DNA of 64,000 bases from an uncultured beta proteobacterium (GTDB lineage: Bacteria > Pseudomonadota > Gammaproteobacteria > Burkholderiales > Gallionellaceae). The position numbers were made by a program, and so were the translations under genes. The stretch lies in assembly GCA_942492745.1 (NCBI GenBank), contig OW818637.1, forward strand, positions 1,086,580 through 1,150,579. Reading direction: 5' to 3'. Shown piece by piece: positions 5,019 to 57,164 of the stretch; position 1 is the stretch's first letter, and every line of letters starts with the position of its first letter. The notes under the pieces were generated by a model. That model ran no database searches and was not told where the DNA came from. It saw only the letters and a program-made list of their open reading frames with translations.

Positions 5019-5516
5019 TTATTTTTTAAATCCAATAAGGTAGATACCGATAACTTTTCCCACTTTATCTTTAATTGGATCATAACAAGTGTAGAAAGAA
5101 TTACCTAAAATATCGATATCCCCGCAATATGCTTCACCCTTGATTACTGCGTCATAAGCCTTGTTATGAGCAAGTTTAGTTCCAACCCCGCGAACTCCTT
5201 TAGGCGTTAATACATTTGTACTAACCCGAATAAATTCGACGCCATCTTTAACAAAGACAGTAGAATAAGCACCAGACGATTTTTTAATTTCATCAACAAC
5301 ACTAAAATTATTGTTTATTTTTTGTTTACCGAAATAAATGACTGGAGCAATTATATTTCCAGACTTTTCTACACCTTCGATTCTAGGTTCGCCCATTTTT
5401 GTAAATTTCGCTTTAAGCTCATCCACTGTTTTTCTGGGGTCATTTGTACTCGCGGTGGCCATAAACGCAGTGGCCATAAACAGTAATGTTGTTATAAACA
5501 AAATTGTTTTTTTCAT
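5019..5516 (-). CDS. Exported single-Cache-like (sCache_3-type) domain protein
   Basis: Likely start at MKKTILFITTLLFMATAFMATA (signal peptide). The body, GNIIAPVIYFGKQKINNNFSVVDEIKK..YSTVFVKDGVEFIRVSTNV...RGVGTKL.. AYDAVIKGEAYCGDIDILGNSFYTCYDPIKD..GKVIGIYLIG, resembles stand-alone Cache sensor domains. The gene is AT-rich. Confidence 0.55.
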   Translation of the reverse strand: MKKTILFITTLLFMATAFMATASTNDPRKTVDELKAKFTKMGEPRIEGVEKSGNIIAPVIYFGKQKINNNFSVVDEIKKSSGAYSTVFVKDGVEFIRVSTNVLTPKGVRGVGTKLAHNKAYDAVIKGEAYCGDIDILGNSFYTCYDPIKDKVGKVIGIYLIGFKK

Positions 5517-5849
5517 AAAAAATGTCCTTTTTAAATAATTTTGATTCAAATAATGAGTTGATAGTTATTGAATTTTAAATATTCGTTTAACAATTGTACA
5601 TTTTAATAGGTATTCTAATTAAAATATCGCATACATTATTGATATTTTTATATTTACTTTATTTAGAATACCCAAGTTTCAGTATTTTTGAAAGTATCAT
5701 TTCATTAATATAGGCGGATTAAAATTTCGAATAGCAACTTTTGTAGGTGAATTTAGGTGGCGAGCTGCGCTAGTATCGGAGCCAATTAAACAATCAACTA
5801 AAAGGAGTACAAATGGACATCTATAAGCAGCTCATAAACAAAGATATCA

Positions 5850-6060
5850 GATTTTCTGGGTTGAAGAAGGCGAGCAAGCGGGCCGTAATACTGGTGAGTG
5901 ACACTCACCGAATATTTCCCTACTTTTTGGAAAAACGCGTATCGTCGATGATCCAGTAGCAGCCGCTATAACGTCCAAGCACAGGCGCAATAATCTCGCG
6001 TACCGGTCAGAATGGCCGATCCCTTTAGACAAATGAGCCACTACCGGTTGAACTCATAGA
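5850..6060 (-). pseudogene. Remnant of an IS701-like (DDE) transposase
   Basis: The minus strand reads ..IIAPVLGRYSGCYWIIDDTRFSKK*. One frame over it reads KKVGKYSVSVTHQYYGPLARL. This is the conserved IIDDTGFPKKGxHSVGVxRQYCGxLG block of IS701-family transposases, broken by a stop and a frameshift. No full-length ORF remains. Confidence 0.45.
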
Positions 6061-6131
6061 TGAGTCCATACTGTCTCCTTTCTGTGTCAATGAAGCTGTC
6101 ATCCTGCATTTATGGCACAGTAAGGTTAGGT

Positions 6132-8291
6132 CTATTTTATATTGTGATGTGCTAAAAAATCTGCCTGTTGTAGTTTAACGAGTGCATGTATATCTTCCCC
6201 AACAGGCTGGTAGAGAGGACGGACCTTTCGCACAACGATATTGTTCGCTTCTTTAACATCATCTGCACGTAAAGCAATTAGTACCGGTTTCAAGCCTTCG
6301 TTAATGAATCTATTTCGGTTAGCGGCAAACCTCTCCGCCAGTGTTCTTTCAGCGGGTGTAAGATGATTGGCCATGTAGGCATTCCATGTTTGTTCTATTT
6401 CAGCAATATTTTCTTCGACCTGTGCTGTATTGTGGCTAATAATCTCGGGCGTCGGTGTTACCAGGGTAGTCGCGATTGCGAGCCGGTTTTCCAGTAATAG
6501 CAATTCAATATGCGCCACCTGTTCAAGAGGAATAGTGCGATCCTGCTGGTCAACTTTTAGATCCTGTTCGGTCTTGCTCATTCCGACAATCAATAGCGGC
6601 AGGGCGCATAGTATTCCAAACATTAGCGCCAGCTGAACCCGCCCGAAACCATTTACAATTAGTGGACCCTTGGCTTGAGTAAATTCTTCTTCAAGGGGTT
6701 GATATCCTTGACTGACTTTTCTGCCCGCTAGTGGATGATTGGAAAAAGGCTGGAACCGTTCAAAGCCTTTTACTATGACTGTACCGCCCGCGTGAGTATA
6801 TTCTTCTTCAAAGTGTTTAAGGAATTCCATAAAAGTATGATCAACCAGTTTGGCCTTGGAAAAATCCAGCCATACTTTTTTTCCGGCTTTTAATTGGTTG
6901 AACGCATTTTTAAAGCCCATCAAATTGGAGAATATGGCAGCACCCTGAATGGTTAAATTATATTCATCTTCTTTTTCTTTTAATGTATACCGAGCATTGA
7001 ACATGCTGCGAAGTGGAGCCCCATTTACAATATGGAATAAAAATTTAGCGACGATGCCCGAGGCTATCCCTATAAGTAAATCGGTCGCGATAGTTGCGGC
7101 GATGGTTACTAAAAAAACCACTAATTGCTCACTACCAATTTTGTAGGTTTTGTAGAATAGCGAAGGTGAAGCGAGTACATAGCCAACAAATATCAACATG
7201 GCTGCCAGCGCGGCATTGGGAATCATTTCAATCACGGGAATCATCAGTAGCATGGCAACCAACAAGAAGAAACCGTGGAAGAAATTGGCCCAAATTGTAC
7301 GGCCACCAAAACGTACGTTGGCTGAGCTACGTGCAACTTCAGCTATCATCGGCAGTCCACCCAACAATCCCGCAACTGCATTACCTGCTCCGACGGCAGC
7401 CAGGTCTTTATTGAAATCCGATTGACGCTTCCAGGGATCCAATCCGTCAACAGCTTTTACTGTAAGTAATGACTCCAGGCTGCCCACGACAAGAAACATG
7501 AATACATATTTCCAGAACACAAAACTAGTTATTGCAGAGAAATCGGGGTTGTATCCTACTGAACCCCAGAAGTCACCGATATGAACAAGGGCATGGGCCG
7601 GTTGTGTTGTCTTGAAGCTCAAAATAAATGCCGCTGGAATAGCAAACAAAAGCACAATCATCGGTGCTGGAATTTTTTTCAAGAAATTGATTTTTGTTTT
7701 CGGCATGCCGAATAAAACAATCAAACTGACAATGCCAATTAATGCAACCGGCTGATTGGCGTGCATGACAGAGTCGGGAATGCGTTCCAAAAGTCCAATT
7801 GGATTCAATCCTTTTAATGTGGAAGGGTCAATTCCCAGCAAGATATGGATTTGTTTGGAAAAGATGATTATTCCGATGGCAGCCAGCATCCCGTGCACAG
7901 CCGAGTGCGGAATAAAATCACTGAGTGAACCGGCTTTCAAGAAACCTAAAACGATTTGAATCCATGAAGCGACTACAATTGCGCCAAGAGCCAGATGCCA
8001 TCCTTCCGGGCCGCCTCCAAGTTCGGTTACGCATCCTGCACAGATTGTTATTAAGCCAGCAGCAGGACCTTTAATGGTAAGACGTGAGCCGGCAAAAAAA
8101 CTGACAAACAAACCTCCAATCATTGCTGTAAGCACACCCATCGCAGGCGGAAATTCACTGGCTTTCGCGATGCCTAAACTGAGAGGTAACGCTAGCAGGA
8201 AGACCAGGAATCCTGAAATAAAATCTGATCTAAAATTTTCTTTCAGTCCGGCTATACCCTCTTTGGGAAGAGATGATTGAATGGAACTCAT
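6132..8291 (-). CDS. SulP-family anion (bicarbonate/sulfate-type) transporter with STAS domain, extended by an extra TM helix and a 4HB_MCP-type sensor domain
   Basis: 719-aa ORF. The N-terminus, FISGFLVFLLALPLSLGIAKASEFPPAMGVLTAMIGG...TIKGPAAGL, is the SulP core. A STAS-like region ends in ..FSNHPLAGRK. It is followed by the TM helix VQLALMFGILCALPLLIVGM and about 150 aa matching the chemoreceptor N-terminal four-helix bundle (DRTIPLEQVAHIELLLLENRLAI ... IAEIEQTWNAYMANHLTPAERTLAERFAANRNRF ... ALRADDVKEANNIV..KVRPLYQPVGEDIHALVKLQ). Confidence 0.85.
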   Translation of the reverse strand: MSSIQSSLPKEGIAGLKENFRSDFISGFLVFLLALPLSLGIAKASEFPPAMGVLTAMIGGLFVSFFAGSRLTIKGPAAGLITICAGCVTELGGGPEGWHLALGAIVVASWIQIVLGFLKAGSLSDFIPHSAVHGMLAAIGIIIFSKQIHILLGIDPSTLKGLNPIGLLERIPDSVMHANQPVALIGIVSLIVLFGMPKTKINFLKKIPAPMIVLLFAIPAAFILSFKTTQPAHALVHIGDFWGSVGYNPDFSAITSFVFWKYVFMFLVVGSLESLLTVKAVDGLDPWKRQSDFNKDLAAVGAGNAVAGLLGGLPMIAEVARSSANVRFGGRTIWANFFHGFFLLVAMLLMIPVIEMIPNAALAAMLIFVGYVLASPSLFYKTYKIGSEQLVVFLVTIAATIATDLLIGIASGIVAKFLFHIVNGAPLRSMFNARYTLKEKEDEYNLTIQGAAIFSNLMGFKNAFNQLKAGKKVWLDFSKAKLVDHTFMEFLKHFEEEYTHAGGTVIVKGFERFQPFSNHPLAGRKVSQGYQPLEEEFTQAKGPLIVNGFGRVQLALMFGILCALPLLIVGMSKTEQDLKVDQQDRTIPLEQVAHIELLLLENRLAIATTLVTPTPEIISHNTAQVEENIAEIEQTWNAYMANHLTPAERTLAERFAANRNRFINEGLKPVLIALRADDVKEANNIVVRKVRPLYQPVGEDIHALVKLQQADFLAHHNIK

Positions 8292-8757
8292 GATATCTTT
8301 GCTCCTATGTTGGGCAGAAACTTCCGGCTTTATAGTAATTTTAAGGTCTTTTTTAACACTGCTTTTAGCGGTACAGACAGATTGTCGATATAAAATTTAT
8401 CCTGCGTTTATCGTCAAAACATAATGTGCTGGCCTCTTTGCTTACAAAACCTGAAGTACAGTGACAGCGTTCAGTAGCGCACATTTATGCTTGAAAATAC
8501 TTGCCTTGCAGAATATTTCGAGGACTGTTTCCTGCAATTGCTACTTTATATTTCGATTTTTGGTTCGAGGAGACATCGAACTGTTCAGCCAATGCAGCAA
8601 ATATCTTGTTTTCTTAGTTAGCATGAACAAATTGGTACTCCTCTATTTATAATGTCCACCACGGTTTGCATTGAGCAAGACCGTATTTAGTAGCCTTTAA
8701 ATTTTATAGGCCATCAATTGTTGGCTTGTGCGGTTGAGTTTCTCATTCAATTTCTAA

Positions 8758-10638
8758 TTAAGAGGACCTGTTAGGATGAGCATGATAAGTTTTTATATGA
8801 GGCCCAAGAAAAATACGAGCGTATATCCTGATCAATGAAAGTCCCGTTATTACGTAACTCAAGGCAGCGAGAAATACCAGGCCAGCCTGATCTTCATGAA
8901 TATGGGTAAATATTAGCTCTACTCCAATAAATGTTGGAGTCATTGGGAATGCCATTAGGCCTAAACAAGCTAATAGAAAAATAAATGCCAATTTAGGATG
9001 CTCGTAAGAGTGACCTTGAAACTGATCTAAGGTGATTTTGTGTTCGTGAGATTTGAGTTCATTCAGACAAGCGTAGCCTAAGACTCCTGAAATAATTACT
9101 CCACTTAAATACAGAATAATTTCATTGGTACTTATATCGCCATTTAACGATATGGCGAGAGGCCGATATAGATGCATGGTAATTACCAAGACCAAACTTA
9201 GCAGAGCATTTTTTCTTTCTGCAAATGATTTGAGCACCATTAGCAAACCAATAAATGCAAAAGATTCAGGTAAGTATTTGTATACTTCTTTTGGTATTAG
9301 CTGTTCATTGAATAAGCAGATTAAACCAATAAGATATGTTGCAATAAAGAAAATAACAACTTCAATTCCTGAGAAAAAATTTAATTTTCTGCTAGACCAC
9401 TTCAAAGGATTCCAAAAGAAACGATATACGAAGCTATCCAGATTGAACTCTTTGAGACATAACAAATATATTGAATATTCAATTTTTTTGAGAACTGACT
9501 TTCTATCAATATAATGACGTGGAATAAAATTATAAAATTGCTCGCGAATCATATAGCTTACTACCGAAGGCGAAACTAATAGTTGATAGGTTCTTAAAAA
9601 GGCGTTTCCGGTAAAATGTATCAAAGCAAGGCTGTGAAAACCTAAAGCAATTTCAATAAAAATCAGTCCAATTTGTGCAATCGAGGAATAGGCAATTTGC
9701 GTTTTAACGGATGATTGGACTCGTGCAATTCCTGTGGCAACAATGCTGGTAAATAATCCTAAAAATATTACAGTTATTACTATGGAAGTAAGGTGTTCCC
9801 AAAAAGGAAATGTTCTTAATAAAAGAAATGCACCTAAATGAACTGAAAGCGATCCGTAAAAAATTGCACTGGATGGGGTTGGACCTTCCATTGCTCTTGG
9901 AACCCAGGAAGAAAAAGGAAGTTGACCTGATTTTACTGCGGCGGCAAGTAATATCATCAGGGAAATAAGAACACCAAGGAGAGGATGATTTTGAAGATTT
10001 TCGCTAATAAATTGTTTATCAGTTAATTCTGAAAAGTTAATATTTTTACGCCATAAATAATGATTCATCCACATAACAATGAGTAAGCTCATATCGGCAA
10101 TACGAAATACTGTAAAGACCTTGAGCGCATTTTTTACAGGTAAATATCTGTCTCTGTAAAATCCAATCAACAAAAAAGAAGAAAGACCAAGTATCTCCCA
10201 GCCAACAAAAAGGGTTTCAAAATTTCCTGAAAATATTATTATGTTATAACCAATATAAAAGAAAAGAATGATGTTAAAAAATCGTTTGTAACCACTTTCT
10301 CGATGAAGATACCAACGGCAGTATTGTGTTACCAGAAGTGTGAGGGCAGAACCAACAAATAGGTAAACGGCACTGATCTTATCAAAATAGAAAGAAACTA
10401 AAAATTGATACTCCTTTGTTTTAAAAAGGATAATTCCGCTTTTCTCAAGTGTTGGATAATTATAGAGTAGCCATACAATCAAGAATACCCAAGAAATAAT
10501 TAAATGCAAACCCACGGTAAAAAGGACAGTCCGTGAGACAGCATTTTCCATTTTTTCTGGGATAAATAGACTAAAAATAAACCCCAAAAATGGTATGAGT
10601 ATAAAAAATTGAAGCATTGATGAGAGTAGCAAAGTCAT
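8758..10638 (-). CDS. dabB: DabB: NuoL/ND5-like proton-conducting membrane subunit of a DAB inorganic-carbon pump
   Basis: 626-aa polytopic ORF with the NuoL/ND5 core FVGWEILGLSSFLLIGFY ... SGQLPFSSWVPRAMEGPTPSSAIFYGSLSVHLGAFLL. It lies 9 nt downstream of the DUF2309/DabA gene on the same strand. Confidence 0.8.
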   Translation of the reverse strand: MTLLLSSMLQFFILIPFLGFIFSLFIPEKMENAVSRTVLFTVGLHLIISWVFLIVWLLYNYPTLEKSGIILFKTKEYQFLVSFYFDKISAVYLFVGSALTLLVTQYCRWYLHRESGYKRFFNIILFFYIGYNIIIFSGNFETLFVGWEILGLSSFLLIGFYRDRYLPVKNALKVFTVFRIADMSLLIVMWMNHYLWRKNINFSELTDKQFISENLQNHPLLGVLISLMILLAAAVKSGQLPFSSWVPRAMEGPTPSSAIFYGSLSVHLGAFLLLRTFPFWEHLTSIVITVIFLGLFTSIVATGIARVQSSVKTQIAYSSIAQIGLIFIEIALGFHSLALIHFTGNAFLRTYQLLVSPSVVSYMIREQFYNFIPRHYIDRKSVLKKIEYSIYLLCLKEFNLDSFVYRFFWNPLKWSSRKLNFFSGIEVVIFFIATYLIGLICLFNEQLIPKEVYKYLPESFAFIGLLMVLKSFAERKNALLSLVLVITMHLYRPLAISLNGDISTNEIILYLSGVIISGVLGYACLNELKSHEHKITLDQFQGHSYEHPKLAFIFLLACLGLMAFPMTPTFIGVELIFTHIHEDQAGLVFLAALSYVITGLSLIRIYARIFLGPHIKTYHAHPNRSS

Positions 10639-10647
10639 TTTTAAATT

Positions 10648-13182
10648 TTAATTAATTAAGTAGACTGGCAAATTCTCTTTAGTGGCTTCAACTATATGAG
10701 TAGATTCTGCTGCTTTAACTGATTCAATTAAAGTAATAACATCTGATATAGAGCCAAGAGCTCGTGTTAATGGACGGTAAAGAGAGAAGCCGCCGTCTTT
10801 AAATAAAAAAATCTCGCGCGTCTCTGGATTTACCGCAACTAGCCGAACCCACTCATTTATATAAAATTCATAATTTGCTGGTTGCTGATTAATTGCTGCC
10901 AATACGATTTCAGGAAAGTGTTCTACGATAACAAGGAGACGGATAGGATCATGAACTTCAATCATTTGACTTGGGAGGCCAGGTCTTAAGTCGCCATCAC
11001 TGCCGTTAGCAACGCCAATAAGTCCCATAACATTATGTGGAAGTTTTGTTCCTGCGCCCAATTTGTAATTATCAACTCGCGAGAAAAAGTATTCGAGACT
11101 GATTCCTCCCATAACCGGGGCAATAGGTTTCATTACATTAGATAGATATTTTCCTTCAGGATCTATTTTGTAATTGTAAGAATTCATAGACGACCGTCTG
11201 TCCAGATAGATGTCCTTGGATAGATCTCGCCTGCCGACAAAGCAAATTGCGTTGGTTGAATGGTTAAGTTCTTGTCGAGGTTCGAATAATGAAACTGATC
11301 GCCTAAGAATTTCTTCATGAATTTTTTTGGCGCTCAAGTTAGTATCAATTGACACTAACCTTCTCGATCTTTCTTTTGAATTTAAATCCAACGCCTTGAC
11401 GAAAACGGGTGTATTTTTTTTGTGGTTTGTCGAATTCACGGGAGAAAGTAAGTTTTCATCGAAATACGTAATCTCGTCACGCGTAGTATCATGAAGGGCA
11501 CCTAGAAATTGTGTTTCTATTGGAATTACTAGTCCTCTTGAGTTCAGCACTGCTCTAACTTCAGGGTGATTAGCCATAAAACAAAATACTCTTGCATTAA
11601 CTGAACCAGGCCTGCCTCCACAGGCTCCACAGTCATAAGCACAGTAATGCGGATTATTAATACTGGTTGCACCATGTCCGACCACATATACAATTGATGC
11701 AAAATCTTTTACAAGTCCAATGCTTATTAAAATTGTTTCTACTCTTTGAACCATCTCTTCGATTGTAAATCCCACTTGCAAATCGTTTTCCCGATGGTTC
11801 GTATTTTTGTTCTCAATAGTAAGGTTTGAAACCTTATCCATATGTGCAATTGGTGAAGCCATGGCAGGCATCGCGGAAGGCCGGAAAATATTCAGTGCCA
11901 GTTTAAATCCTGACAGTAATCCCAGTGTTTGAGTAATTAGCCAACCTCGAAAAAGAGAATGTGATAATTTAGAGAAATATGCTTCTTTCTTCCTCTTTTT
12001 TTTGGTTTCTGTTTCCTTAATTAAATGTTTTGGTGTAACTGGTGCAGGACAACATTTTGTATAGAATTTTCCATGTTCAGGTTGAAAAAAGAATTCAACG
12101 CCAAAGAATCCAGGTGTTGCAAAAGTTTCACATTCCGAGTCAATTCTTTCAAGGTAACGACGGAACGAAAGCTCCCTATCGTCGATACATGTGAACACTT
12201 GAAAACTTTTGTGGAATGTTACTGTTTCGTCTTTCCTTTTTTGCAATTGAATAGCGGCAAGCACTTGATCATAATAAGACCATTCAAAAGCATCTTGCCA
12301 AATTGAAAGAACTTCATCTAATTCTGTTTTGGGAACTTCATCAAAAAGTTCTACAGGTCTGTTTTTTAAATTGCTGCCAATTGGCAACCAATCTTCTTCA
12401 AATTGGAAATCAAGTGCATCAATCTCGAGTAAGAGTTCAAAAATAATTAAGTCATGAATTGATATTTTTTTTGGGTTCAGCAGAGATTGTGGTTGATTCT
12501 CAATGGCGGATACCATACCTGACCAACCTTGATGAGCAAATTGCTGATCGAATAAATATTGCTTGTAAAGCGATTCGTCACCAACAAGAATTTTTAGCAA
12601 ATCTTCAACTTTACAATTGCCCTTAAGGAGGAGTTCTTTGGCTCTTCTTCTTTTAAAGAAACTTGTAAAACTGTTTTCTTCTATTTCTCTTAAAGAAGAA
12701 AGAAAGCCTTTATGCCCAACGGGGAAACCCCATATTGAAATTCCCTGATCGAGATAACTGCAAAGAATTCTGAAAAGTAATGGATGGACAAACAAATCAA
12801 GATCTATACGATATTGATTTTTCCAATTTAATCTTAGCAAACCGATTCTTGATGCAATAGATGTGTCATATCTCTTACTGAGCACATTTTTCATCCACTC
12901 ATTTGCGTTCTCTAAACCTTTTTTCTCAGCAATAATTCTTTTTAGAATGTCTTCCCGGATACGTTTAGATATATAGAGCGATCTATAATCTTCTAACTCA
13001 AGAGAAACAAAATAACCAAATATTTTGGAAGCATGACGAATGCCATCATAGAATTGAAAATTCTGAAACGCATGCAACGTATTGTGATGGATAAAATCTT
13101 TTAGCGGAGCCTGACTCGGCAAAAAGTGCTTCAATTCATGAAGTGCTTCTTGTTCATTAAAAATAGAATTATTTGAATTCAT
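10648..13182 (-). CDS. dabA: DabA (DUF2309/YbcC family), beta-carbonic-anhydrase-like subunit of a DAB inorganic-carbon pump
   Basis: 844-aa ORF. The N-terminus, LKHFLPSQAPLKDFIHHNTLHAF, is typical of DUF2309. FTCIDDRELSF and VVGHGATSINNPHYCAYDCGACGG provide the Cys/Asp and His/Cys zinc-ligand motifs described for DabA. Confidence 0.85.
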   Translation of the reverse strand: MNSNNSIFNEQEALHELKHFLPSQAPLKDFIHHNTLHAFQNFQFYDGIRHASKIFGYFVSLELEDYRSLYISKRIREDILKRIIAEKKGLENANEWMKNVLSKRYDTSIASRIGLLRLNWKNQYRIDLDLFVHPLLFRILCSYLDQGISIWGFPVGHKGFLSSLREIEENSFTSFFKRRRAKELLLKGNCKVEDLLKILVGDESLYKQYLFDQQFAHQGWSGMVSAIENQPQSLLNPKKISIHDLIIFELLLEIDALDFQFEEDWLPIGSNLKNRPVELFDEVPKTELDEVLSIWQDAFEWSYYDQVLAAIQLQKRKDETVTFHKSFQVFTCIDDRELSFRRYLERIDSECETFATPGFFGVEFFFQPEHGKFYTKCCPAPVTPKHLIKETETKKKRKKEAYFSKLSHSLFRGWLITQTLGLLSGFKLALNIFRPSAMPAMASPIAHMDKVSNLTIENKNTNHRENDLQVGFTIEEMVQRVETILISIGLVKDFASIVYVVGHGATSINNPHYCAYDCGACGGRPGSVNARVFCFMANHPEVRAVLNSRGLVIPIETQFLGALHDTTRDEITYFDENLLSPVNSTNHKKNTPVFVKALDLNSKERSRRLVSIDTNLSAKKIHEEILRRSVSLFEPRQELNHSTNAICFVGRRDLSKDIYLDRRSSMNSYNYKIDPEGKYLSNVMKPIAPVMGGISLEYFFSRVDNYKLGAGTKLPHNVMGLIGVANGSDGDLRPGLPSQMIEVHDPIRLLVIVEHFPEIVLAAINQQPANYEFYINEWVRLVAVNPETREIFLFKDGGFSLYRPLTRALGSISDVITLIESVKAAESTHIVEATKENLPVYLIN

Positions 13183-13435
13183 TTTTGATAAGCTCTATCT
13201 AATGTTATTTTTTCTTTAGGCCGAGTGTGGCAATTTAAAAAATTTCTTATATATAACGTGATTGTCTGTTACTAAAATAATCATTAAATTATTTTTAATT
13301 TTTAAAATGGTATGGGTAATGTATGTTTAGGAAAAAATCTTGTCAAACTGAAGCTTGATATATGTCGGTCAGCAAAATTTGAAGATTTTTTATTCATTTA
13401 TATGTAACTAATTTTAGTTAGCATGATGTTTAAAT

Positions 13436-13942
13436 ATGAGAATAACCAATAAAATGCCTCAAGAAATATTGATTCGCCTTGCTGAAATTCGTGATGTTCA
13501 AGTTATAACTAAATTTAATCGAGCCATGGCTCTCGAAACAGAACAGAAAGAATTAATACCGGAAGTAATATCAAAGGGCGTCGATAAACTTTTAAATAAT
13601 CCCAATCTTGGTTTTTATGTGATTGCAGAACGTGACAATGAAGCTATTGGATCACTAATGGTAACTACGGAATGGAGCGATTGGCGAAATGGTATTTTTT
13701 GGTGGATTCAAAGCGTCTACATTGAGCCAAATGAGCGCCGAAAAGGGATTTATACTGAGCTTTATAATTTTATTCGAGAGTCTGCGAATAATAATCCAAG
13801 TATTTGCGGGTTTCGCCTTTATGTAGAAAAAGAAAATATTCTTGCCCAAAATGCATATGAAGCTCTTGGCATGATGGAAACGGATTACCGAATATACGAA
13901 GAATTAAAACCAGGAACTCGCTTCTGTATGGACGCTATATAG
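13436..13942 (+). CDS. GNAT-family N-acetyltransferase
   Basis: 168-aa ORF. WIQSVYIEPNERRKGIYTELYNFI is the acetyl-CoA-binding Q/RxxGxG/A-like motif A region, and the length is typical of GNAT proteins. Confidence 0.75.
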   Translation: MRITNKMPQEILIRLAEIRDVQVITKFNRAMALETEQKELIPEVISKGVDKLLNNPNLGFYVIAERDNEAIGSLMVTTEWSDWRNGIFWWIQSVYIEPNERRKGIYTELYNFIRESANNNPSICGFRLYVEKENILAQNAYEALGMMETDYRIYEELKPGTRFCMDAI

Positions 13943-14250: not shown

Positions 14251-14357
14251 TCATAACTAATCATCTAACCAATGAGTTGATTTAAATTTTGATTTGTGGG
14301 TACAGCGGGATGTTTTCTCTATATGCCGACAATATCCGTCTAGGAATGGGAATAAAT

Positions 14358-15110
14358 ATGAAAAATGCACAAGTATATTTGATAGGTGCAGGACCAGGCA
14401 GTTTGGAACTGCTGACTCTTGGTGCAGTGCGCTCCATCGGACTGGCGGATGCCATTCTGATTGATGATTTAGTGAATCCTGATGTTCTGGGATTTGCCAA
14501 AGACTGCGCGCAGATTATTCACGTGGGCAAACGCGGGGGATGTAACTCTACGCCACAAAAATTCATCCATAAGCAAATGATTTCACTGGCGCGTGCAGGC
14601 AAGGTGGTAGCACGCATCAAGGGCGGTGATCCGTTTATGTTCGGGCGCGGAGGTGAGGAACTACAAGCTTTGCGGCAAGCCGGTATTTCGGTATCCGTTA
14701 TTAGTGGCATTACCTCCGGCATGGCAGTTACGGCTGCTTTGAACATTCCGCTAACGCATAGAGACTGCACGCATGGCGTAACGTTTGTCACGGGCCATAC
14801 GCAAGGAACAGAGGAACCGAACTGGCAGGCATTGGCGGCGACAGGCACTACTCTGGTCATATATATGGGTATGTCCAATTTAGGGCACATCATGCAGCGA
14901 TTGATAGCAAATGGGTTATCGACAGATATGCCTGCAGCCGCAATCCAGAACGGAACGCTGCCTAATCAGCAGCAGGTAGTGACTACGCTAGGGCAACTTG
15001 AATCCTTGGTGGTTGCCGAAAAAATGGCTAGCCCGGCGATCATAGTTATTGGCGAAGTAGTGCGATTTGCCGAAATGGCGGAACACGTTTCGCAGCGATT
15101 GGCCGCATAA
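14358..15110 (+). CDS. cobA: Uroporphyrinogen-III C-methyltransferase (siroheme branch)
   Basis: VYLIGAGPGSLELLTLGA, RIKGGDPFMFGRGGEE and VISGITS are SUMT motifs. I chose the MKNAQ start at 14358. The gene precedes the siroheme-dependent nirB. Confidence 0.85.
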   Translation: MKNAQVYLIGAGPGSLELLTLGAVRSIGLADAILIDDLVNPDVLGFAKDCAQIIHVGKRGGCNSTPQKFIHKQMISLARAGKVVARIKGGDPFMFGRGGEELQALRQAGISVSVISGITSGMAVTAALNIPLTHRDCTHGVTFVTGHTQGTEEPNWQALAATGTTLVIYMGMSNLGHIMQRLIANGLSTDMPAAAIQNGTLPNQQQVVTTLGQLESLVVAEKMASPAIIVIGEVVRFAEMAEHVSQRLAA

Positions 15111-15135
15111 CAATTTTGTAATCAGGAGCGATGTC

Positions 15136-17559
15136 ATGAAAAAAATGAAGCTGGTCATGGTGGGTAACGGAATGGCGGGCGTGCGAACTCTGGAAGAGTT
15201 ATTGAAACTGACTCCCGATTTGTATGACATTACCGTATTTGGTGCCGAACCCTATCCTAATTACAACCGCATCATGTTGTCACCGGTATTGGCGGGCGAA
15301 CAAGGCATCCAGGACATTATCCTGAACGACATTGACTGGTATAAGCAAAACAATATCACCTTGCATCTGAACAAGAAGGTCGTGCGTATCGCCCGAAAAA
15401 GCAAGGTGGTGGTGGCTGAAGATGGCACAGAAGCCGAATACGACAGACTGTTGCTGGCGACCGGCTCTAGTTCCTTCATTCTGCCGGTTCCCGGCAAGGA
15501 ATTGGCCGGTGTGATTGGCTACCGCGACATCCAGGACACCAACGCGATGATAGCCGCAGCTGAAAAATATAAACACGCGGTGGTCATCGGCGGCGGCCTG
15601 CTCGGGCTGGAAGCCGCCAATGGCTTGGCGCTTAGAGGTATGGATGTCACCGTTGTGCATATCATGCCATGGCTGATGGAACGCCAACTGGATGATAATT
15701 CAGCAAAAATGCTGCAATCCGCTTTGGAAGCCAAGGGGTTGAAATTCATCTTGGAGCAGCAGACTCAAGAGTTAGTAGACGATGGACATGGCCGCGTAAA
15801 GTCGATTCGCTTCAAGGATGGCAGTGAGATTCCTGCCGACCTGGTGGTGATGGCAGTTGGCATCCGCCCGAATGTTGCGCTGGCAGAATCAGCCGGGGTT
15901 TACTGTAATCGCGGCATTGTGGTGAGCGATACCATGCAAACCTATGACCCCAGTATCTACGCGGTGGGTGAGTGCGTTTCACATCGCGGCATCGCTTACG
16001 GTTTGGTCGCCCCGCTATTCGATATGGCCAAGGTCTGCGCCAATCATCTGGCGCGCATGGGAATCGCATACTACCAAGGCTCGGTTACCTCCACCAAGCT
16101 CAAAGTCACCGGAGTAGATTTGTTTTCGGCCGGTAATTTTACTGGCGGCAAAGAAACGAATGAGATCGTAATGCACGATGTCACCAGCGGGAGATACAAA
16201 AAACTGGTACTGAACAATAATACGCTCATCGGCGCAGTGATGTATGGCGATACCAAGGATAGCTCGTGGTATTTCCAGATGATACGTGATGGTAAAAATG
16301 TCGCCGAAATCCGTGACCAATTAATATTCGGCCAATCCCATATAGGCAATGCCGGCTCTCAAGGACAAAACCTTGCGGCCACGATGACAAACGCGATGGA
16401 AGTCTGCGGTTGCAATGGAGTATGCAAAGGTACTATCGTCAAGGCAATCAAGGAACAAGGGCTGTTCACGCTGGAGGATGTACGCAAGCACACCAAGGCT
16501 TCTGCTTCCTGTGGTTCATGTACCGGTCTGGTCGAACAAATTCTCGCTTCCACTGTCGGGGGGGCTTATGCGCCGCAAGCTACGACCGTGAAGCCTTTAT
16601 GTGACTGCTCTTCTCACAGTCATGAAGAAGTGCGCAAAGCAATCCGCGAGGAAAGGTTGATTTCGATCTCGCAAGCCATGATATTCCTTAACTGGAACAC
16701 CACAAATGGATGTGCCAAGTGCAGGCCGGCATTGAACTATTACCTGCTATGCGCCTGGCCGCATGAAGCAAAAGACGATCCACAATCACGCTACATCAAT
16801 GAGCGCGCCAACGCCAACATACAAAAGGACGGCACATTTTCGGTAGTGCCGCGCATGTACGGCGGCATCACCACTCCACAGCAATTGCGCCGCATCGCTG
16901 ATGTAGCAGAAAAATACAACGTCCCGACGGTTAAGGTGACTGGGGGACAACGCATCGATTTACTCGGCGTAAAAAAAACAGACTTGCCGAAAATGTGGGC
17001 AGATCTGGACATGCCCTCAGGCTACGCCTATGCAAAAGCCTTGCGCACGGTCAAAACCTGTGTGGGCAGCGAGTGGTGCCGTTTCGGTGTGCAAGACTCG
17101 ACGCAGATGGGTATCGACATCGAGCGCGCGTTTGACCATATGTGGATGCCGCACAAATTCAAGGTTGCCGTGTCCGGCTGTCCGCGTAACTGTGCGGAAT
17201 CAGGCATCAAAGATGTAGGCATAATCGGCGTGGAATCAGGTTGGGAAATCTATGTAGCGGGTAACGGCGGTATCAAGACCGTGGTCGCGCAATTCCTGGT
17301 GAAGGTAAAGACTCACGATGAAGTGATGGAGTACACCGGCGCATTCGCCCAGCTTTATCGCGAAGAAGCACATTACCTGGACCGCACAGTACATTACGTC
17401 GAACGGGTTGGTCTGGACCATGTCAAGAAACACGTGGTAGAAAATGCAGCCAATCGCAAAGCTTTATACGCAAGATTGCTATATGCGCTGCAGGGTGCAA
17501 CAAACCCATGGGCCAAAGAAAACATCAATGCGCGTGAATTCGAATCGCTGGCAATTTAA
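15136..17559 (+). CDS. nirB: Assimilatory NAD(P)H nitrite reductase, large subunit
   Basis: It has the FAD/NAD fold KLVMVGNGMAGVRT, the BFD-like [2Fe-2S] region CGCNGVCKG...CGSCTG, and the siroheme/4Fe-4S region TCVGSEWCRFG ... SGCPRNCAE. I chose the start at 15136. Confidence 0.95.
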   Translation: MKKMKLVMVGNGMAGVRTLEELLKLTPDLYDITVFGAEPYPNYNRIMLSPVLAGEQGIQDIILNDIDWYKQNNITLHLNKKVVRIARKSKVVVAEDGTEAEYDRLLLATGSSSFILPVPGKELAGVIGYRDIQDTNAMIAAAEKYKHAVVIGGGLLGLEAANGLALRGMDVTVVHIMPWLMERQLDDNSAKMLQSALEAKGLKFILEQQTQELVDDGHGRVKSIRFKDGSEIPADLVVMAVGIRPNVALAESAGVYCNRGIVVSDTMQTYDPSIYAVGECVSHRGIAYGLVAPLFDMAKVCANHLARMGIAYYQGSVTSTKLKVTGVDLFSAGNFTGGKETNEIVMHDVTSGRYKKLVLNNNTLIGAVMYGDTKDSSWYFQMIRDGKNVAEIRDQLIFGQSHIGNAGSQGQNLAATMTNAMEVCGCNGVCKGTIVKAIKEQGLFTLEDVRKHTKASASCGSCTGLVEQILASTVGGAYAPQATTVKPLCDCSSHSHEEVRKAIREERLISISQAMIFLNWNTTNGCAKCRPALNYYLLCAWPHEAKDDPQSRYINERANANIQKDGTFSVVPRMYGGITTPQQLRRIADVAEKYNVPTVKVTGGQRIDLLGVKKTDLPKMWADLDMPSGYAYAKALRTVKTCVGSEWCRFGVQDSTQMGIDIERAFDHMWMPHKFKVAVSGCPRNCAESGIKDVGIIGVESGWEIYVAGNGGIKTVVAQFLVKVKTHDEVMEYTGAFAQLYREEAHYLDRTVHYVERVGLDHVKKHVVENAANRKALYARLLYALQGATNPWAKENINAREFESLAI

Positions 17560-17572
17560 AAAGGGGCAAATC

Positions 17573-17884
17573 ATGAACACTTGGCATGAAGTCACAACTT
17601 TAGAAGAAATACCACCTCTGGGCGCACGCGTAGTTACGACAAAACAGGGGGACATCGCACTGTTCCGCACTGCGGAGGGAGAGGTATTTGCGTTGCTCGA
17701 TAGGTGCCCGCATAAGGGCGGCCATCTGTCACAAGGCATCGTATTCGGGAAGAAAGTAGCTTGCCCGCTGCATGGCTGGAATATCTGCCTGGATGACGGT
17801 AAAGCAGTGGCGCCAGACGTGGGGTGCACGCGCTCTTATCCGGTCAAGGTAGAAAATGATGTGGTGTATTTATCGCTTGCATAA
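17573..17884 (+). CDS. nirD: Nitrite reductase small subunit (Rieske-like)
   Basis: 103 aa from MNTWHEV. CPHKGGHLSQG...CPLHGW is a Rieske-type motif. It lies immediately after nirB. Confidence 0.9.
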   Translation: MNTWHEVTTLEEIPPLGARVVTTKQGDIALFRTAEGEVFALLDRCPHKGGHLSQGIVFGKKVACPLHGWNICLDDGKAVAPDVGCTRSYPVKVENDVVYLSLA

Positions 17885-17925
17885 AGTTACAGAATTATCC
17901 GAAGGTTAATTTCATAACGTTAAAG

Positions 17926-18741
17926 GTGATGCAAATGGATTACGTGCAACCTATCAAGTTAATAGAGCAACTTGTTGTTGTTGGCGAAAAAAAAGCATCT
18001 CTTGGTGTTCAGGATATGCTGCTTCGAGGTTTTCTTTCCGGGGTGCTGCTGGGTTTTGCGACTGCACTTGCGTTCAGGGTATCTGATGGATTTACGGGGG
18101 GCGCTGCTGCACTGGTAATGGGGATCATTTTCCCCGTAGGCTTCGTGATGATCGTACTGCTCGGATTGGAATTGGTCACAGGTAGCTTTGCGCTGTTACC
18201 GATGAGTGTCGCTGATGGAAAAATAAGTGGCAGCGAAATGTTACGGAATTGGTGCTGGGTTTTTCTAGGGAACTTGCTGGGCAGCCTGTTTTTTGGCGGG
18301 TTGCTGGCATTGGCACTTACTGGAACTTCGCCTGCCCCGGGTGGCCGATTAGCAGAAAAAATTATTGCAGTTGCTCAGGCTAAAACGCTTGCTTACCAGC
18401 ATACAGGTTCAATTGGCTGGCTCGCTGCCTTTATCAATGGCATCCTCTGCAACTGGATGGTGACTTTAGGCGTAGTGTTGGGTTTGATCTCCACTTCAAC
18501 TATTGGAAAAATCATCGCTCCCTGGCTACCAATCATGACATTTTTTGCACTTGGATTTGAGCACTGTGTCGTCAATATGTTCGTAATACCTACCGCGATG
18601 CTATTGGGTGCCGACATCAGTGTTTATCAATGGTGGTTCTGGAATCAAGTTCCGGTCACGCTGGGCAACTTGATTGGAGGTTCGATTTTTACCGGCATGC
18701 TCTTGTATGCCACTTATGGCAGAATGAATAAACATGCTTAA
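17926..18741 (+). CDS. nirC: Formate/nitrite transporter family protein (nitrite channel)
   Basis: 271-aa six-TM ORF. GLELVTGSF and FEHCVVNMF are FNT signature regions. It sits in the nir operon. Confidence 0.85.
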   Translation: MMQMDYVQPIKLIEQLVVVGEKKASLGVQDMLLRGFLSGVLLGFATALAFRVSDGFTGGAAALVMGIIFPVGFVMIVLLGLELVTGSFALLPMSVADGKISGSEMLRNWCWVFLGNLLGSLFFGGLLALALTGTSPAPGGRLAEKIIAVAQAKTLAYQHTGSIGWLAAFINGILCNWMVTLGVVLGLISTSTIGKIIAPWLPIMTFFALGFEHCVVNMFVIPTAMLLGADISVYQWWFWNQVPVTLGNLIGGSIFTGMLLYATYGRMNKHA

Positions 18742-56795: not shown

Positions 56796-57164
56796 TGGTG
56801 GAGGCGGCGGGAATTGAACCCGCGTCCGCAAGCACTCTACAGGCAGTTCTACATACTTAGTCAAGTTATTTAATTTTATCCGGTAGACGCCAACCGACAG
56901 GCTGCTACCGAACGAGTTACCTAAATTTAATGCCATACAAAGTAACCCTGCATGACACGATTCCGTGTATATGACCTCACTCATCGCGGCCTTGCGGCCT
57001 TGAGCCCCTCCACGGACAGCAGGGTGTGAGGTCTAACCGCTTACGCGGCTAAAGCGTACTTTTCGTCGTTTGCGACTATTGGTTTTCCAGCTGATTTACG
57101 AGGTTGCGGGTCCTCGGTATGCCCTACACTGCTTTGCAACCCACGTCGAAGCCAAGTCGCCCCC
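56796..57164 (-). ncRNA. ssrA: tmRNA (SsrA), tag ANDEKYALAA
   Basis: The minus strand starts GGGGGCGACTTGGCTTCGACGTGGG. It contains ..CCTCGTAAATCAGCTGGAAAACCAATAGTC GCAAACGACGAAAAGTACGCTTTAGCCGCGTAA (tag ORF 57041-57073). It ends ..GACGCGGGTTCAATTCCCGCCGCCTCCACCA, a tRNA-like T-arm, acceptor stem and CCA. Confidence 0.95.

What the first reader, a model, noticed from the sequence alone, without database searches (positions are those of the whole stretch)
6132..6760. SulP transporter fused at its C-terminus to a periplasmic chemoreceptor-type four-helix-bundle sensor domain
The 719-aa SulP ORF does not stop where this family normally ends, just after the STAS domain at ..FSNHPLAGRK. It continues in frame through one extra hydrophobic helix (VQLALMFGILCALPLLIVGM). 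About 150 aa follow that read like the N-terminal ligand-binding four-helix bundle of methyl-accepting chemotaxis proteins: DRTIPLEQVAHIELLLLENRLAI, IAEIEQTWNAYMANHLTPAERTLAERFAANRNRF, RADDVKEANNIV and RPLYQPVGEDIHALVKLQ. The protein ends before any second TM helix, HAMP domain or signalling domain.

The topology implied by the extra helix would put a ligand-sensing domain in the periplasm, tethered to a probable bicarbonate/anion transporter. I do not know of a characterised example of this architecture. It could be a ligand-gated transporter, or a fossil fusion created when the adjacent IS701-like element (remnant at 5850-6060) truncated a chemoreceptor gene.
Basis: partly seen in the sequence, partly recalled or inferred. 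Interest (0 to 1): 0.7.

Follow-up and report, generated by a model that had tools for sequence, protein, structure and literature searches.

The report
SulP transporter carrying a periplasmic chemoreceptor sensor
In the nitrite-oxidising genus Candidatus Nitrotoga, an anion (probably bicarbonate) transporter has permanently acquired the outward-facing ligand-binding domain of a chemotaxis-type receptor without any signalling part, which suggests, but does not prove, a transporter controlled directly by an external chemical.

Summary
ORF 6132..8291 (-) encodes one 719-aa protein: Sulfate_transp (1.5e-56), a STAS-like α/β domain, a 26-aa linker, one strongly hydrophobic helix (552-571), and a Tar-type four-helix bundle (TarH 3.7e-26; AF2 pLDDT 91; best Foldseek hits are chemoreceptor and kinase sensor domains). 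There is no second TM helix, HAMP or output domain.

It is not a one-off fossil. The same uninterrupted architecture occurs in about 32 protein clusters and in six further Candidatus Nitrotoga genomes, always as dabA-dabB-sulP. The extension is under purifying selection (dN/dS 0.17 for the bundle, against 0.06 for the core and 0.11 for STAS). It keeps 27 of 29 residues conserved in its two-TM sensor relatives.

The IS701-like remnant is shared with only one other genome, so there is no evidence that it caused the truncation. The junction carries a diverged 69-nt direct repeat of the STAS 3' end, which marks a rearrangement.

Among the 150 best hits of an exhaustive search of 1.84 billion representative proteins, only the Nitrotoga cluster has this domain at a C-terminus. 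No paper found describes it.

Most likely function (inferred): a periplasmic ligand-sensing regulator of a transporter linked to inorganic-carbon uptake. Ligand, substrate and mechanism are untested.

The parts
6132..8291 (-). Complete 719-aa fusion gene including the stop codon: SulP core, STAS, linker, TM15 and a periplasmic four-helix bundle.
   Evidence: The ORF is listed and its domains. Full-length orthologues with 76-96% identity are found.
7104..8234 (-). SulP/SLC26 membrane transport domain (residues 20-396).
   Evidence: Pfam Sulfate_transp E=1.5e-56. The hydropathy profile shows multiple TM segments. dN/dS is 0.06.
6717..7001 (-). STAS-like cytoplasmic domain (residues about 431-525), ending ...FSNHPLAGRK where unfused relatives stop.
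   Evidence: The Pfam STAS hit is weak (E=0.037). AF2 gives an alpha/beta fold with pLDDT about 80-85. Unfused relatives end at GRKIRK* or GRKVKK.... dN/dS is 0.11.
6749..6817 (-). Direct repeat copy 1: the 3' end of the STAS-coding region (..LKHFEEEYTHAGGTVIVKGFERFQ).
   Evidence: Local DNA alignment of copy 1 against copy 2 scores 31, against 7.9 +/- 1.2 in shuffles.
6632..6700 (-). Direct repeat copy 2: the linker immediately before the extra TM helix (..QPLEEEFTQAKGPLIVNGFGRVQ). It is the scar of the rearrangement that made the fusion.
   Evidence: The repeat is significant in 6 of the 7 genomes (scores 15-31), but not in L005.
6579..6638 (-). Extra transmembrane helix TM15 (residues 552-571). 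It is homologous to TM1 of the donor sensor family but about 5 residues shorter.
   Evidence: Highest hydropathy peak in the protein and positive-inside flank charges. Aligned to TM1 of the sensor relatives. tblastn homology to MCPs starts at MCP residue 8. dN/dS is 0.13.
6135..6578 (-). Periplasmic Tar-type four-helix-bundle ligand-binding domain (residues 572-719). It ends about 10-15 residues before the point where relatives enter TM2.
   Evidence: TarH E=3.7e-26. AF2 pLDDT is 91 with four helices. Foldseek top hits are chemoreceptor and kinase LBDs. dN/dS is 0.17. 27 of 29 family-conserved residues are kept.
8758..10638 (-). dabB-like gene (Proton_antipo_M), upstream in the same orientation.
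   Evidence: Pfam. Synteny is conserved in all Nitrotoga loci.
10648..13182 (-). dabA (inorganic carbon transporter subunit DabA), the first gene of the conserved dabA-dabB-sulP cluster.
   Evidence: Pfam DabA E=1.1e-204. Synteny.
5850..6060 (-). Short frameshifted remnant of an IS701-family (DDE_5) transposase downstream of the gene. It is not part of the fusion and is not its cause.
   Evidence: Motif WIIDDTRFSKK/GKYSVSVTHQYYG. DDE_5 E=1.9e-4, below the cutoff. Shared only with L001.

Best explanation
**What it is.** This is a genuine, selectively maintained gene fusion, found so far only in the genus Candidatus Nitrotoga. A SulP/SLC26-family anion transporter is the third gene of a conserved dabA-dabB-sulP inorganic-carbon-uptake cluster and is therefore probably a bicarbonate transporter. 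Behind its cytoplasmic STAS domain it has gained the N-terminal module of a betaproteobacterial Tar-type sensor: TM1 plus the four-helix-bundle ligand-binding domain.

**Topology.** The termini of the SulP fold and the STAS domain are cytoplasmic; this rests on established SLC26Dg and BicA structures, from my own knowledge. The extra helix therefore crosses from inside to outside and places the bundle in the periplasm. There it is tethered by a single helix, with no TM2, HAMP or output domain.

**Origin.** The fusion arose once, by a rearrangement that left a diverged 69-nt duplicate of the STAS 3' end at the junction.

**Proposed mechanism (inferred, not shown).** SLC26 transporters and Tar-type bundles both function as homodimers. 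The two periplasmic bundles of a transporter dimer would bind a small, probably anionic, ligand at or near their interface. Ligand-dependent dimerisation or repacking would be passed through alpha1-TM15 to the gate/dimer interface of the transporter, or the bundle would sterically cap its periplasmic face. Either way, anion transport would be tuned directly to an external chemical cue without any phosphorelay.
For: **Shown**
- One uninterrupted ORF with the Sulfate_transp and TarH domains.
- The same architecture in about 32 clusters at 76-94% identity and full coverage; the named ones are all Ca. Nitrotoga. It is also found in six species-level genomes.
- dN/dS is 0.17 for the bundle and 0.13 for TM15, against 0.06 for the core and 0.11 for STAS.
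- 27 of 29 positions that are at least 80% conserved in canonical two-TM relatives are retained, including R603, W636, R675 and R691-P692-L693.
- There is no conserved in-frame start codon upstream of TM15, so the bundle can reach the periplasm only as part of the fusion.
- The bundle fold is confidently predicted (pLDDT 91). It matches solved chemoreceptor and kinase LBDs that bind malate/citrate, amino acids or aromatic acids.
- TM15 is the strongest hydrophobic segment and obeys the positive-inside rule.
- The nearest relatives of the bundle are N-terminal sensor modules of MCPs, GGDEF-EAL proteins and histidine kinases, always followed by HAMP.
- dabA-dabB-sulP synteny holds in every Nitrotoga locus. 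Unfused relatives also sit beside DabA/Proton_antipo_M or complex-I-like genes.
- SulP-family HCO3- transporters are documented in autotrophic Proteobacteria (PMC10880623).
- The junction repeat is significant.
Against: - No ligand, substrate, topology or expression data exist.
- In Tar-type receptors the signal leaves through alpha4-TM2, which is exactly the part missing here. A route through TM15 is therefore hypothetical.
- Two membrane-proximal family-conserved residues have changed (Y582Q, E647A) and TM15 is about 5 residues shorter. Both are compatible with loss of classical signalling.
- The full-length AF2 model was too poor (pLDDT 56, membrane domain below 50) to show where TM15 packs or whether the bundle can contact the transporter.
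- BicA and DauA NCBIfam scores are far below their cutoffs, so 'bicarbonate' rests only on gene neighbourhood.
- Purifying selection proves that the domain matters, not that it senses a ligand.
Confidence: 0.45

Rival explanations
1. Structural or oligomerisation accessory with no ligand sensing. TM15 and the dimer-prone four-helix bundle are kept because they stabilise the transporter dimer, or its folding or localisation. The former ligand pocket would then be irrelevant.
For: - The TM2/HAMP output path is gone.
- Membrane-proximal residues have changed and TM15 is shortened.
- dN/dS of the bundle (0.17) is somewhat higher than that of the core (0.06).
Against: 27 of 29 residues conserved in bona fide sensors are retained. 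These include the alpha1 Arg and the alpha4 R-P-L motif, which sit where Tar-type pockets lie (the pocket position is from my own knowledge of Tar). A pure dimerisation clamp would not need them.
Confidence: 0.2
2. Docking platform or substrate antenna. The periplasmic bundle either recruits a periplasmic partner (for example a carbonic anhydrase, or the small secreted sCache protein encoded downstream in some genomes), or it captures the transported anion and hands it to the transporter, like the fused substrate-binding domains of some ABC/TRAP systems.
For: - An orphan secreted sCache_3 protein is encoded just downstream in the window, in L005 and in L011.
- 4HB domains such as NarX and McpN bind small oxyanions (my own knowledge).
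Against: - The sCache gene is not adjacent in L001-L004 or L006.
- I know of no precedent for a 4HB acting as a delivery domain.
- There is no direct evidence for any partner.
Confidence: 0.15
3. Decaying fossil. An accidental read-through fusion, for example caused by the nearby IS701-like element, with no function, seen because it is recent.
For: - An IS701-family remnant lies about 70-280 bp downstream of the stop codon.
- The 3' flank is a rearrangement hotspot and differs in every genome.
- A repeat scar sits at the junction.
Against: - The fusion is intact in seven genomes whose synonymous divergence reaches or approaches saturation: pairwise dS is about 0.2-0.9 for most pairs, and above 1.7 or undefined for pairs with L005. 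dN/dS is 0.17.
- The end point is the same in all of them.
- About 32 clusters show the architecture in metagenomes.
- The IS remnant is shared only with L001.
- The one apparent 'split' version is a 100-N scaffold gap.
Confidence: 0.03
4. A transporter-like sensor. The SulP moiety no longer transports. The whole protein is a receptor whose STAS domain passes periplasmic (4HB) and/or membrane (SulP) signals on to a cytoplasmic partner such as DabAB or an anti-sigma-type STAS partner.
For: - STAS domains are known protein-interaction and regulatory modules (my own knowledge).
- The linkage to dabAB is conserved.
Against: The transport core is the most strongly constrained part (dN/dS 0.06). It is about 70-75% identical to ordinary unfused SulP proteins, which argues for retained transport.
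Confidence: 0.1

Closest known systems
SulP/SLC26 transporters with accessory domains fused after the transport core (for example BicA with STAS, or SulP-carbonic anhydrase fusions; the latter from my own knowledge of Felce & Saier 2004)
   Same: It has the same transport fold (Sulfate_transp), a cytoplasmic STAS domain, and an association with inorganic-carbon genes. Relatives in this clade have also gained C-terminal extensions: a Pfam-less domain of about 200 aa in Bacteroidota.
   Different: Here the added module crosses the membrane again and is periplasmic. It is a receptor ligand-binding domain, not an enzyme or a cytoplasmic regulator. BicA and DauA equivalog scores are far below their cutoffs.
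Tar/Tsr-type four-helix-bundle ligand-binding domains of chemoreceptors and sensor kinases (Pfam TarH/4HB_MCP_1; solved examples MCP2201, Vc1313, Adeh_2942, PcaY_PP)
   Same: It shows sequence-family membership (E=3.7e-26), a four-helix fold and a preceding TM1, and it keeps nearly all family-conserved residues.
   Different: There is no TM2, HAMP or output domain. The domain sits at the C-terminus of a 14-TM transporter rather than at the N-terminus of a signalling protein. Of the 150 best representatives, only this cluster has that arrangement.
Transporters or channels with fused or associated extracytoplasmic receptor-type domains (ABC importers with fused substrate-binding domains; the dCache-containing alpha2delta subunits of Ca2+ channels; GluR0-type ligand-gated channels). 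These are conceptual analogues, from my own knowledge.
   Same: An extracytoplasmic ligand-binding module is physically coupled to a membrane transport protein without a phosphorelay.
   Different: The folds differ, the transport mechanism differs (an elevator-type secondary transporter), and no experimental coupling has been shown here.
Transporter-like sensor proteins (SLC5-domain kinases CbrA/CrbS, Amt-kinase fusions). The reverse logic, from my own knowledge.
   Same: A transporter fold and signalling-system parts are combined in one polypeptide.
   Different: In those proteins the transporter fold is the input and a kinase or cyclase is the output. Here a sensor input domain is attached to a transporter and there is no signalling output.

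Membership tests
SulP / SLC26 anion transporter family | Sulfate_transp (PF00916) membrane domain above the curated threshold. | tested here: met
   192.3 bits against a cutoff of 23.2, covering profile positions 1-380 of 380.
SulP / SLC26 anion transporter family | C-terminal cytoplasmic STAS domain. | tested here: inconclusive
   Pfam STAS scores 14.2 bits, below the 22.6 cutoff. However, AF2 gives an alpha/beta domain with pLDDT about 80-85 at residues 430-525. The region also aligns with unfused SulP relatives.
BicA-type bicarbonate transporter (NCBIfam NF050096 equivalog) | Score above the equivalog cutoff. | tested here: not met
   117 bits against a cutoff of 880. The bicarbonate assignment rests only on dabAB synteny.
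DauA C4-dicarboxylate transporter (NF008660 equivalog) | Score above the equivalog cutoff. | tested here: not met
   171 bits against a cutoff of 614.
Tar-type four-helix-bundle ligand-binding domain (TarH / 4HB_MCP_1) | Profile match above the curated threshold. | tested here: met
   TarH 92.6 bits (cutoff 25.2) and 4HB_MCP_1 57.1 bits (cutoff 27).
Tar-type four-helix-bundle ligand-binding domain (TarH / 4HB_MCP_1) | Antiparallel four-helix-bundle fold resembling solved LBDs. | tested here: met
   AF2 pLDDT 91.3 with four helices. The Foldseek top 39 PDB hits are almost all chemoreceptor or kinase 4HB sensor domains, with target-normalised TM-scores up to 0.84.
Tar-type four-helix-bundle ligand-binding domain (TarH / 4HB_MCP_1) | Bundle bracketed by two TM helices (TM1 before alpha1, TM2 after alpha4). 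| tested here: not met
   TM1 is present (552-571). The protein ends about 12 residues after ..ALVKLQ, with no TM2.
Tar-type four-helix-bundle ligand-binding domain (TarH / 4HB_MCP_1) | Binds a small-molecule ligand. | not testable with these tools
   Only indirect evidence: 27 of 29 family-conserved residues are retained.
Methyl-accepting chemotaxis protein | HAMP and MCPsignal cytoplasmic domains. | tested here: not met
   There are no such Pfam hits in the protein. tblastn with full-length MCP relatives finds no remnant in the window or in six loci.

The most novel reading that the evidence does not exclude
This would be the first example of a chemoreceptor-type periplasmic ligand-binding domain directly gating a secondary (SLC26/SulP, elevator-type) transporter. 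In it, an external small molecule would control bicarbonate uptake of an autotrophic nitrite oxidiser through a single tethering helix, with no kinase, methylation or second messenger involved.
Probability: 0.3. Interest if true: 0.8.

Novelty: new variant of a known kind. Interest (0 to 1): 0.58.

Why it matters
Sensor domains of the Tar type are thought to work by pushing on their second transmembrane helix into a HAMP, kinase or MCP output. Here such a domain has been kept under selection across a whole genus with that route deleted, and it is welded to a transporter instead.

If it regulates transport, it would show a new way of coupling chemical sensing to membrane transport. It would give a natural ligand-controlled SLC26-family protein for mechanistic work, and the family includes human disease genes. 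It would also point to an unknown external cue that controls inorganic-carbon uptake in an environmentally important group of nitrite oxidisers.

If it only stabilises the dimer, it remains a clear case of a sensor domain exapted for structure.

Tried and rejected
- **A separately encoded 4HB gene.** P0121 (121 aa) looked like one, but the contig has a 100-N scaffold gap inside the fusion gene. It is an artefact.
- **IS-caused truncation.** The remnant is real but shared only with L001, whereas the fusion and its end point are genus-wide.
- **MCP remainder downstream.** No HAMP or MCPsignal remnant exists in the 64-kb window or in six loci. The downstream genes are unrelated and differ in every genome: porin, Ku, HlyD/AcrB, ABC-F, PurL.
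- **Donor MCP as an ancestral neighbour.** Unfused relatives in Nitrosospira and in other contigs have no sensor gene downstream.
- **Internal translation start for a separate TM-4HB protein.** There is no conserved in-frame ATG, GTG or TTG upstream of TM15.
- **Sequence search of the PDB.** Neither the domain nor a 25-sequence profile gave a significant hit. Only fold comparison worked.
- **Full-length AF2 model.** It was meant to place TM15 relative to the transporter. The membrane domain has pLDDT below 50, so it is unusable for that purpose.
- **Word-index homologue search with the C-terminal domain alone.** It returned only 4 fragments, so the exhaustive HMMER search was needed.
- **Promoter and terminator scan of 5500-8900.** No more sites than in shuffles.
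- **Rfam.** Nothing near the gene.
- **Literature.** No paper links Nitrotoga SulP with DAB or describes a SulP-4HB architecture.
Full report
**1. The observation**

The window carries one ORF at 6132..8291 on the minus strand, 719 aa, with no internal stop. Pfam places four matches:
- Sulfate_transp at residues 20-396 (E=1.5e-56);
- a sub-threshold STAS match at 438-508 (E=0.037);
- TarH at 554-710 (E=3.7e-26, 92.6 bits against a cutoff of 25.2);
- 4HB_MCP_1 over the same stretch (E=2.3e-15).

There is no HAMP or MCPsignal match. Unfused relatives of the transporter end at ...HPL(A/S)GRK plus a few residues.

The extra hydrophobic segment is VQLALMFGILCALPLLIVGM, residues 552-571. It gives the highest Kyte-Doolittle peak of the whole protein (2.39). 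Its N-flank has net charge +2 and its C-flank -1.

An AlphaFold2 model of residues 548-719, built on 25 aligned relatives, has mean pLDDT 91.3. It consists of one long helix (TM15 running into alpha1) and three further helices. The full-length model shows the same four helices at 589-611, 615-640, 646-675 and 679-718 with pLDDT 86-93.

Foldseek against the PDB returns, as its best matches, the ligand-binding four-helix bundles of chemoreceptor MCP2201, sensor kinase Adeh_2942, Vc1313, Tsr, Tar and PcaY_PP. Target-normalised TM-scores are about 0.7-0.84.

**2. Not a one-off**

A homologue search with the full protein found about 32 clusters of 718-722 aa. They have 76-94% identity, 100% coverage and the same Pfam pair (PF00916 with PF02203/PF12729). 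Every named one is from Candidatus Nitrotoga: arctica, AM1P and MAGs.

A scan of one genome per species with the C-terminal 192 aa returned six loci. All are Ca. Nitrotoga: sp. 1052, BS, M5, fabula and two MAGs. Each contains a single uninterrupted reading frame of 719-722 codons ending at the same place.

A 121-aa protein looked like a free-standing bundle. It turned out to be a gene call on the far side of a 100-N scaffold gap within the same fusion gene.

**3. Selection**

I computed Nei-Gojobori estimates over the seven nucleotide sequences. Pairwise dS is about 0.2-0.9 for most pairs and saturating for pairs with N. fabula. The ratios of mean dN to mean dS are:

| Region | dN/dS |
|---|---|
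| Transport core | 0.06 |
| STAS | 0.11 |
| Linker | 0.28 |
| TM15 | 0.13 |
| Four-helix bundle | 0.17 |

The extension is thus under clear purifying selection, comparable to the STAS domain.

Of 29 positions that are at least 80% conserved in canonical two-TM relatives of the bundle, 27 are kept in the fusions. These include R603, W636, Y639, R659, P669, R675 and R691-P692-L693. The two exceptions are Y582Q and E647A; Y582 is membrane-proximal. TM15 is also about five residues shorter than TM1 of the relatives.

No in-frame start codon is conserved upstream of TM15. The bundle can therefore be exported only as part of the fusion.

**4. Where the parts come from**

The exhaustive HMMER search of 1.84 billion representative proteins with the C-terminal 192 aa gave 829 hits. 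Among the best 150, only the Nitrotoga cluster has the domain at a C-terminus, at residues 533-717 of 719. All others carry it at residues about 10-170 or about 165-330.

Ten of the closest hits, at 44-52% identity, were scanned. They are MCPs, a GGDEF-EAL protein, a hybrid histidine kinase and PAS-TM-4HB proteins. Eight of the ten have a detectable HAMP domain after the bundle; one of the other two carries MCPsignal and the remaining one ends soon after the bundle. So the donor was an ordinary, widely shuffled sensor module.

tblastn shows that homology begins at residue 8 of such MCPs, so the whole of TM1 was taken. It ends shortly after ..ALVKLQ, some 10-15 residues before TM2. No HAMP or MCPsignal remnant exists in the window or in the six loci.

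The junction itself carries a scar. The 69 nt at 6632-6700, encoding ..LEEEFTQAKGPLIVNGFGRVQ, are a diverged direct repeat of the 69 nt at 6749-6817, encoding ..FEEEYTHAGGTVIVKGFERFQ at the end of STAS. The alignment score is 31 against 7.9 +/- 1.2 in shuffles. The repeat is also significant in five of the six other genomes.

The repeat ends where TM1 homology begins. This indicates that the sensor 5' region was joined to a second copy of the sulP 3' end by duplication, deletion or template switching. The exact path cannot be reconstructed from these data.

Unfused relatives examined in Nitrosospira and in other contigs have no sensor gene downstream.

**5. The IS element**

The region at about 5850-6060 does contain a frameshifted fragment with the IS701-family motif WIIDDT.FSKK / G..SV.V..QYYG. 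It gives a weak DDE_5 match (E=1.9e-4, below the gathering score).

This DNA is shared only with Nitrotoga sp. 1052, locus L001. In the other genomes the downstream neighbour is different each time: a porin, Ku, HlyD-AcrB, AAA/ABC-F, PurL, or the sCache gene. Since all genomes share the same fusion end point, the IS cannot be credited with the truncation. The 3' flank is simply a rearrangement hotspot.

**6. Context and likely substrate**

Upstream and co-oriented are dabA (10648-13182, PF10070, E=1e-204) and a dabB-like Proton_antipo_M gene (8758-10638). The order dabA-dabB-sulP is conserved in every Nitrotoga locus.

Relatives about 70-75% identical but unfused (528-547 aa; Nitrosospira, Nitrosovibrio, Nitrosomonas) also lie next to DabA and Proton_antipo_M genes. 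Relatives of about 730 aa in Bacteroidota lie next to a complex-I-like module. They carry a different, Pfam-less, TM-less C-terminal extension.

DAB/DAC complexes are CO2-hydrating inorganic-carbon pumps. SulP-family HCO3- transporters have been studied in autotrophic Proteobacteria (PMC10880623). A role in bicarbonate or inorganic-carbon transport is therefore the best guess.

It remains an inference from neighbourhood. The BicA and DauA equivalog models score far below their cutoffs: 117 against 880 and 171 against 614.

**7. Mechanism**

*Shown:* the architecture, its conservation, purifying selection, retention of sensor-family residues, and the absence of any output domain.

*From established knowledge (SLC26Dg and BicA structures, Tar LBD structures; my own knowledge):*
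- SulP termini and STAS are cytoplasmic, so an extra helix places the bundle in the periplasm.
- Both SLC26 transporters and Tar-type bundles are homodimers.
- Tar-type ligands bind at the membrane-distal alpha1/alpha4 region near the dimer interface.
- Isolated LBDs often dimerise on ligand binding.

*Inferred:* two bundles above a transporter dimer bind a small, probably anionic, ligand. They alter transport either through alpha1-TM15 acting on the gate/dimer interface or by steric capping.

The classical piston route (alpha4-TM2) is missing. This is the main argument against simple signalling and the reason for the moderate confidence of 0.45.

Rivals, with my confidence in each:
- a ligand-independent dimer-stabilising accessory (0.2);
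- a docking or antenna domain (0.15);
- a transporter-like receptor signalling through STAS (0.1);
- a decaying fossil (0.03, effectively excluded).

**8. Comparison with what is known, and novelty**

The protein is a member of the SulP family, and its tail is a member of the TarH/4HB_MCP_1 family by sequence and fold. It fails the two-TM criterion of such sensors. It is not an MCP.

SulP proteins with extra C-terminal domains are known. In the sources available here I found no record of one with a second membrane passage and a periplasmic receptor domain. Public annotations call it only 'SulP family inorganic anion transporter'.

I rate it a new variant of known kinds. It is restricted, as far as seen, to one genus, and it is of real interest to transport and signalling specialists. 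It has no functional data, hence an interest score of 0.58.

Noticed in passing
window 5019-5549 (-); also L005 11295-11816 and L011 6761-7264: A 176-aa protein with an N-terminal signal-peptide-like segment (MKKTILFITTLLFMATAFMATAS). It carries a single sCache_3 domain (E=2e-27) and has no TM anchor or output domain, so it is an orphan secreted sensor-type domain. It is 74% identical in Ca. N. fabula and lies just downstream of the SulP-4HB gene in three genomes. It could be a partner of the tethered bundle or an independent binding protein.
   Followed up: partly
window 8292-8757: The 466-nt dabB-sulP intergenic region is conserved at 74-79% identity in L002, L003 and L006, but reduced to about 90 nt in L001 and L004. 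No Rfam family and no convincing promoter or terminator was found. It may be a leader or regulatory region.
   Followed up: partly
window 8750-13500: The dabA-dabB segment has markedly lower G+C (0.31-0.38) than the SulP gene (0.40-0.47) and the flanking housekeeping genes (about 0.50). This suggests a horizontally acquired inorganic-carbon cassette.
   Followed up: no
window about 5850-6060 (-); L001 10676-10863: A frameshifted fragment of an IS701-family (DDE_5) transposase of about 60 codons, shared only with Nitrotoga sp. 1052. The 3' flank of the fusion gene differs in every genome compared.
   Followed up: yes
P0041, P0081, P0072, P0087; L009 8001-10199: Bacteroidota (Cyclobacteriaceae) members of the same SulP clade are about 730 aa. 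They carry a different C-terminal extension of about 200 aa with no Pfam match and no TM helix, and they sit beside a complex-I/Mrp-like gene set (Proton_antipo_M, NADHdh, Complex1_49kDa, Oxidored_q6). This is another uncharacterised add-on to this transporter clade.
   Followed up: no
L007 1-7912 (Nitrosospira MAG): The unfused orthologue is preceded by an unusually long DabA (1103 aa), three consecutive Proton_antipo_M genes and a 355-aa protein without Pfam. This is a more elaborate DAB-like cluster than the two-gene form in Nitrotoga.
   Followed up: no
L005 16305-17753 (-); L011 11147-12366 (-): A second, unfused SulP paralogue (about 32-35% identical) lies a few kb away, beyond sua5, in Ca. 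N. fabula and in a MAG. It was not detected in the first 1100 bases of the window.
   Followed up: partly
window 14289-18741 (+): An assimilatory nitrite reductase cluster lies next to the dab-sulP genes. It comprises a siroheme-type methylase (TP_methylase), a NirB-like NAD(P)H nitrite reductase and a NirC-type formate/nitrite transporter.
   Followed up: no
window 56796-57164 (-): A tmRNA gene (Rfam RF00023, 232 bits).
   Followed up: no
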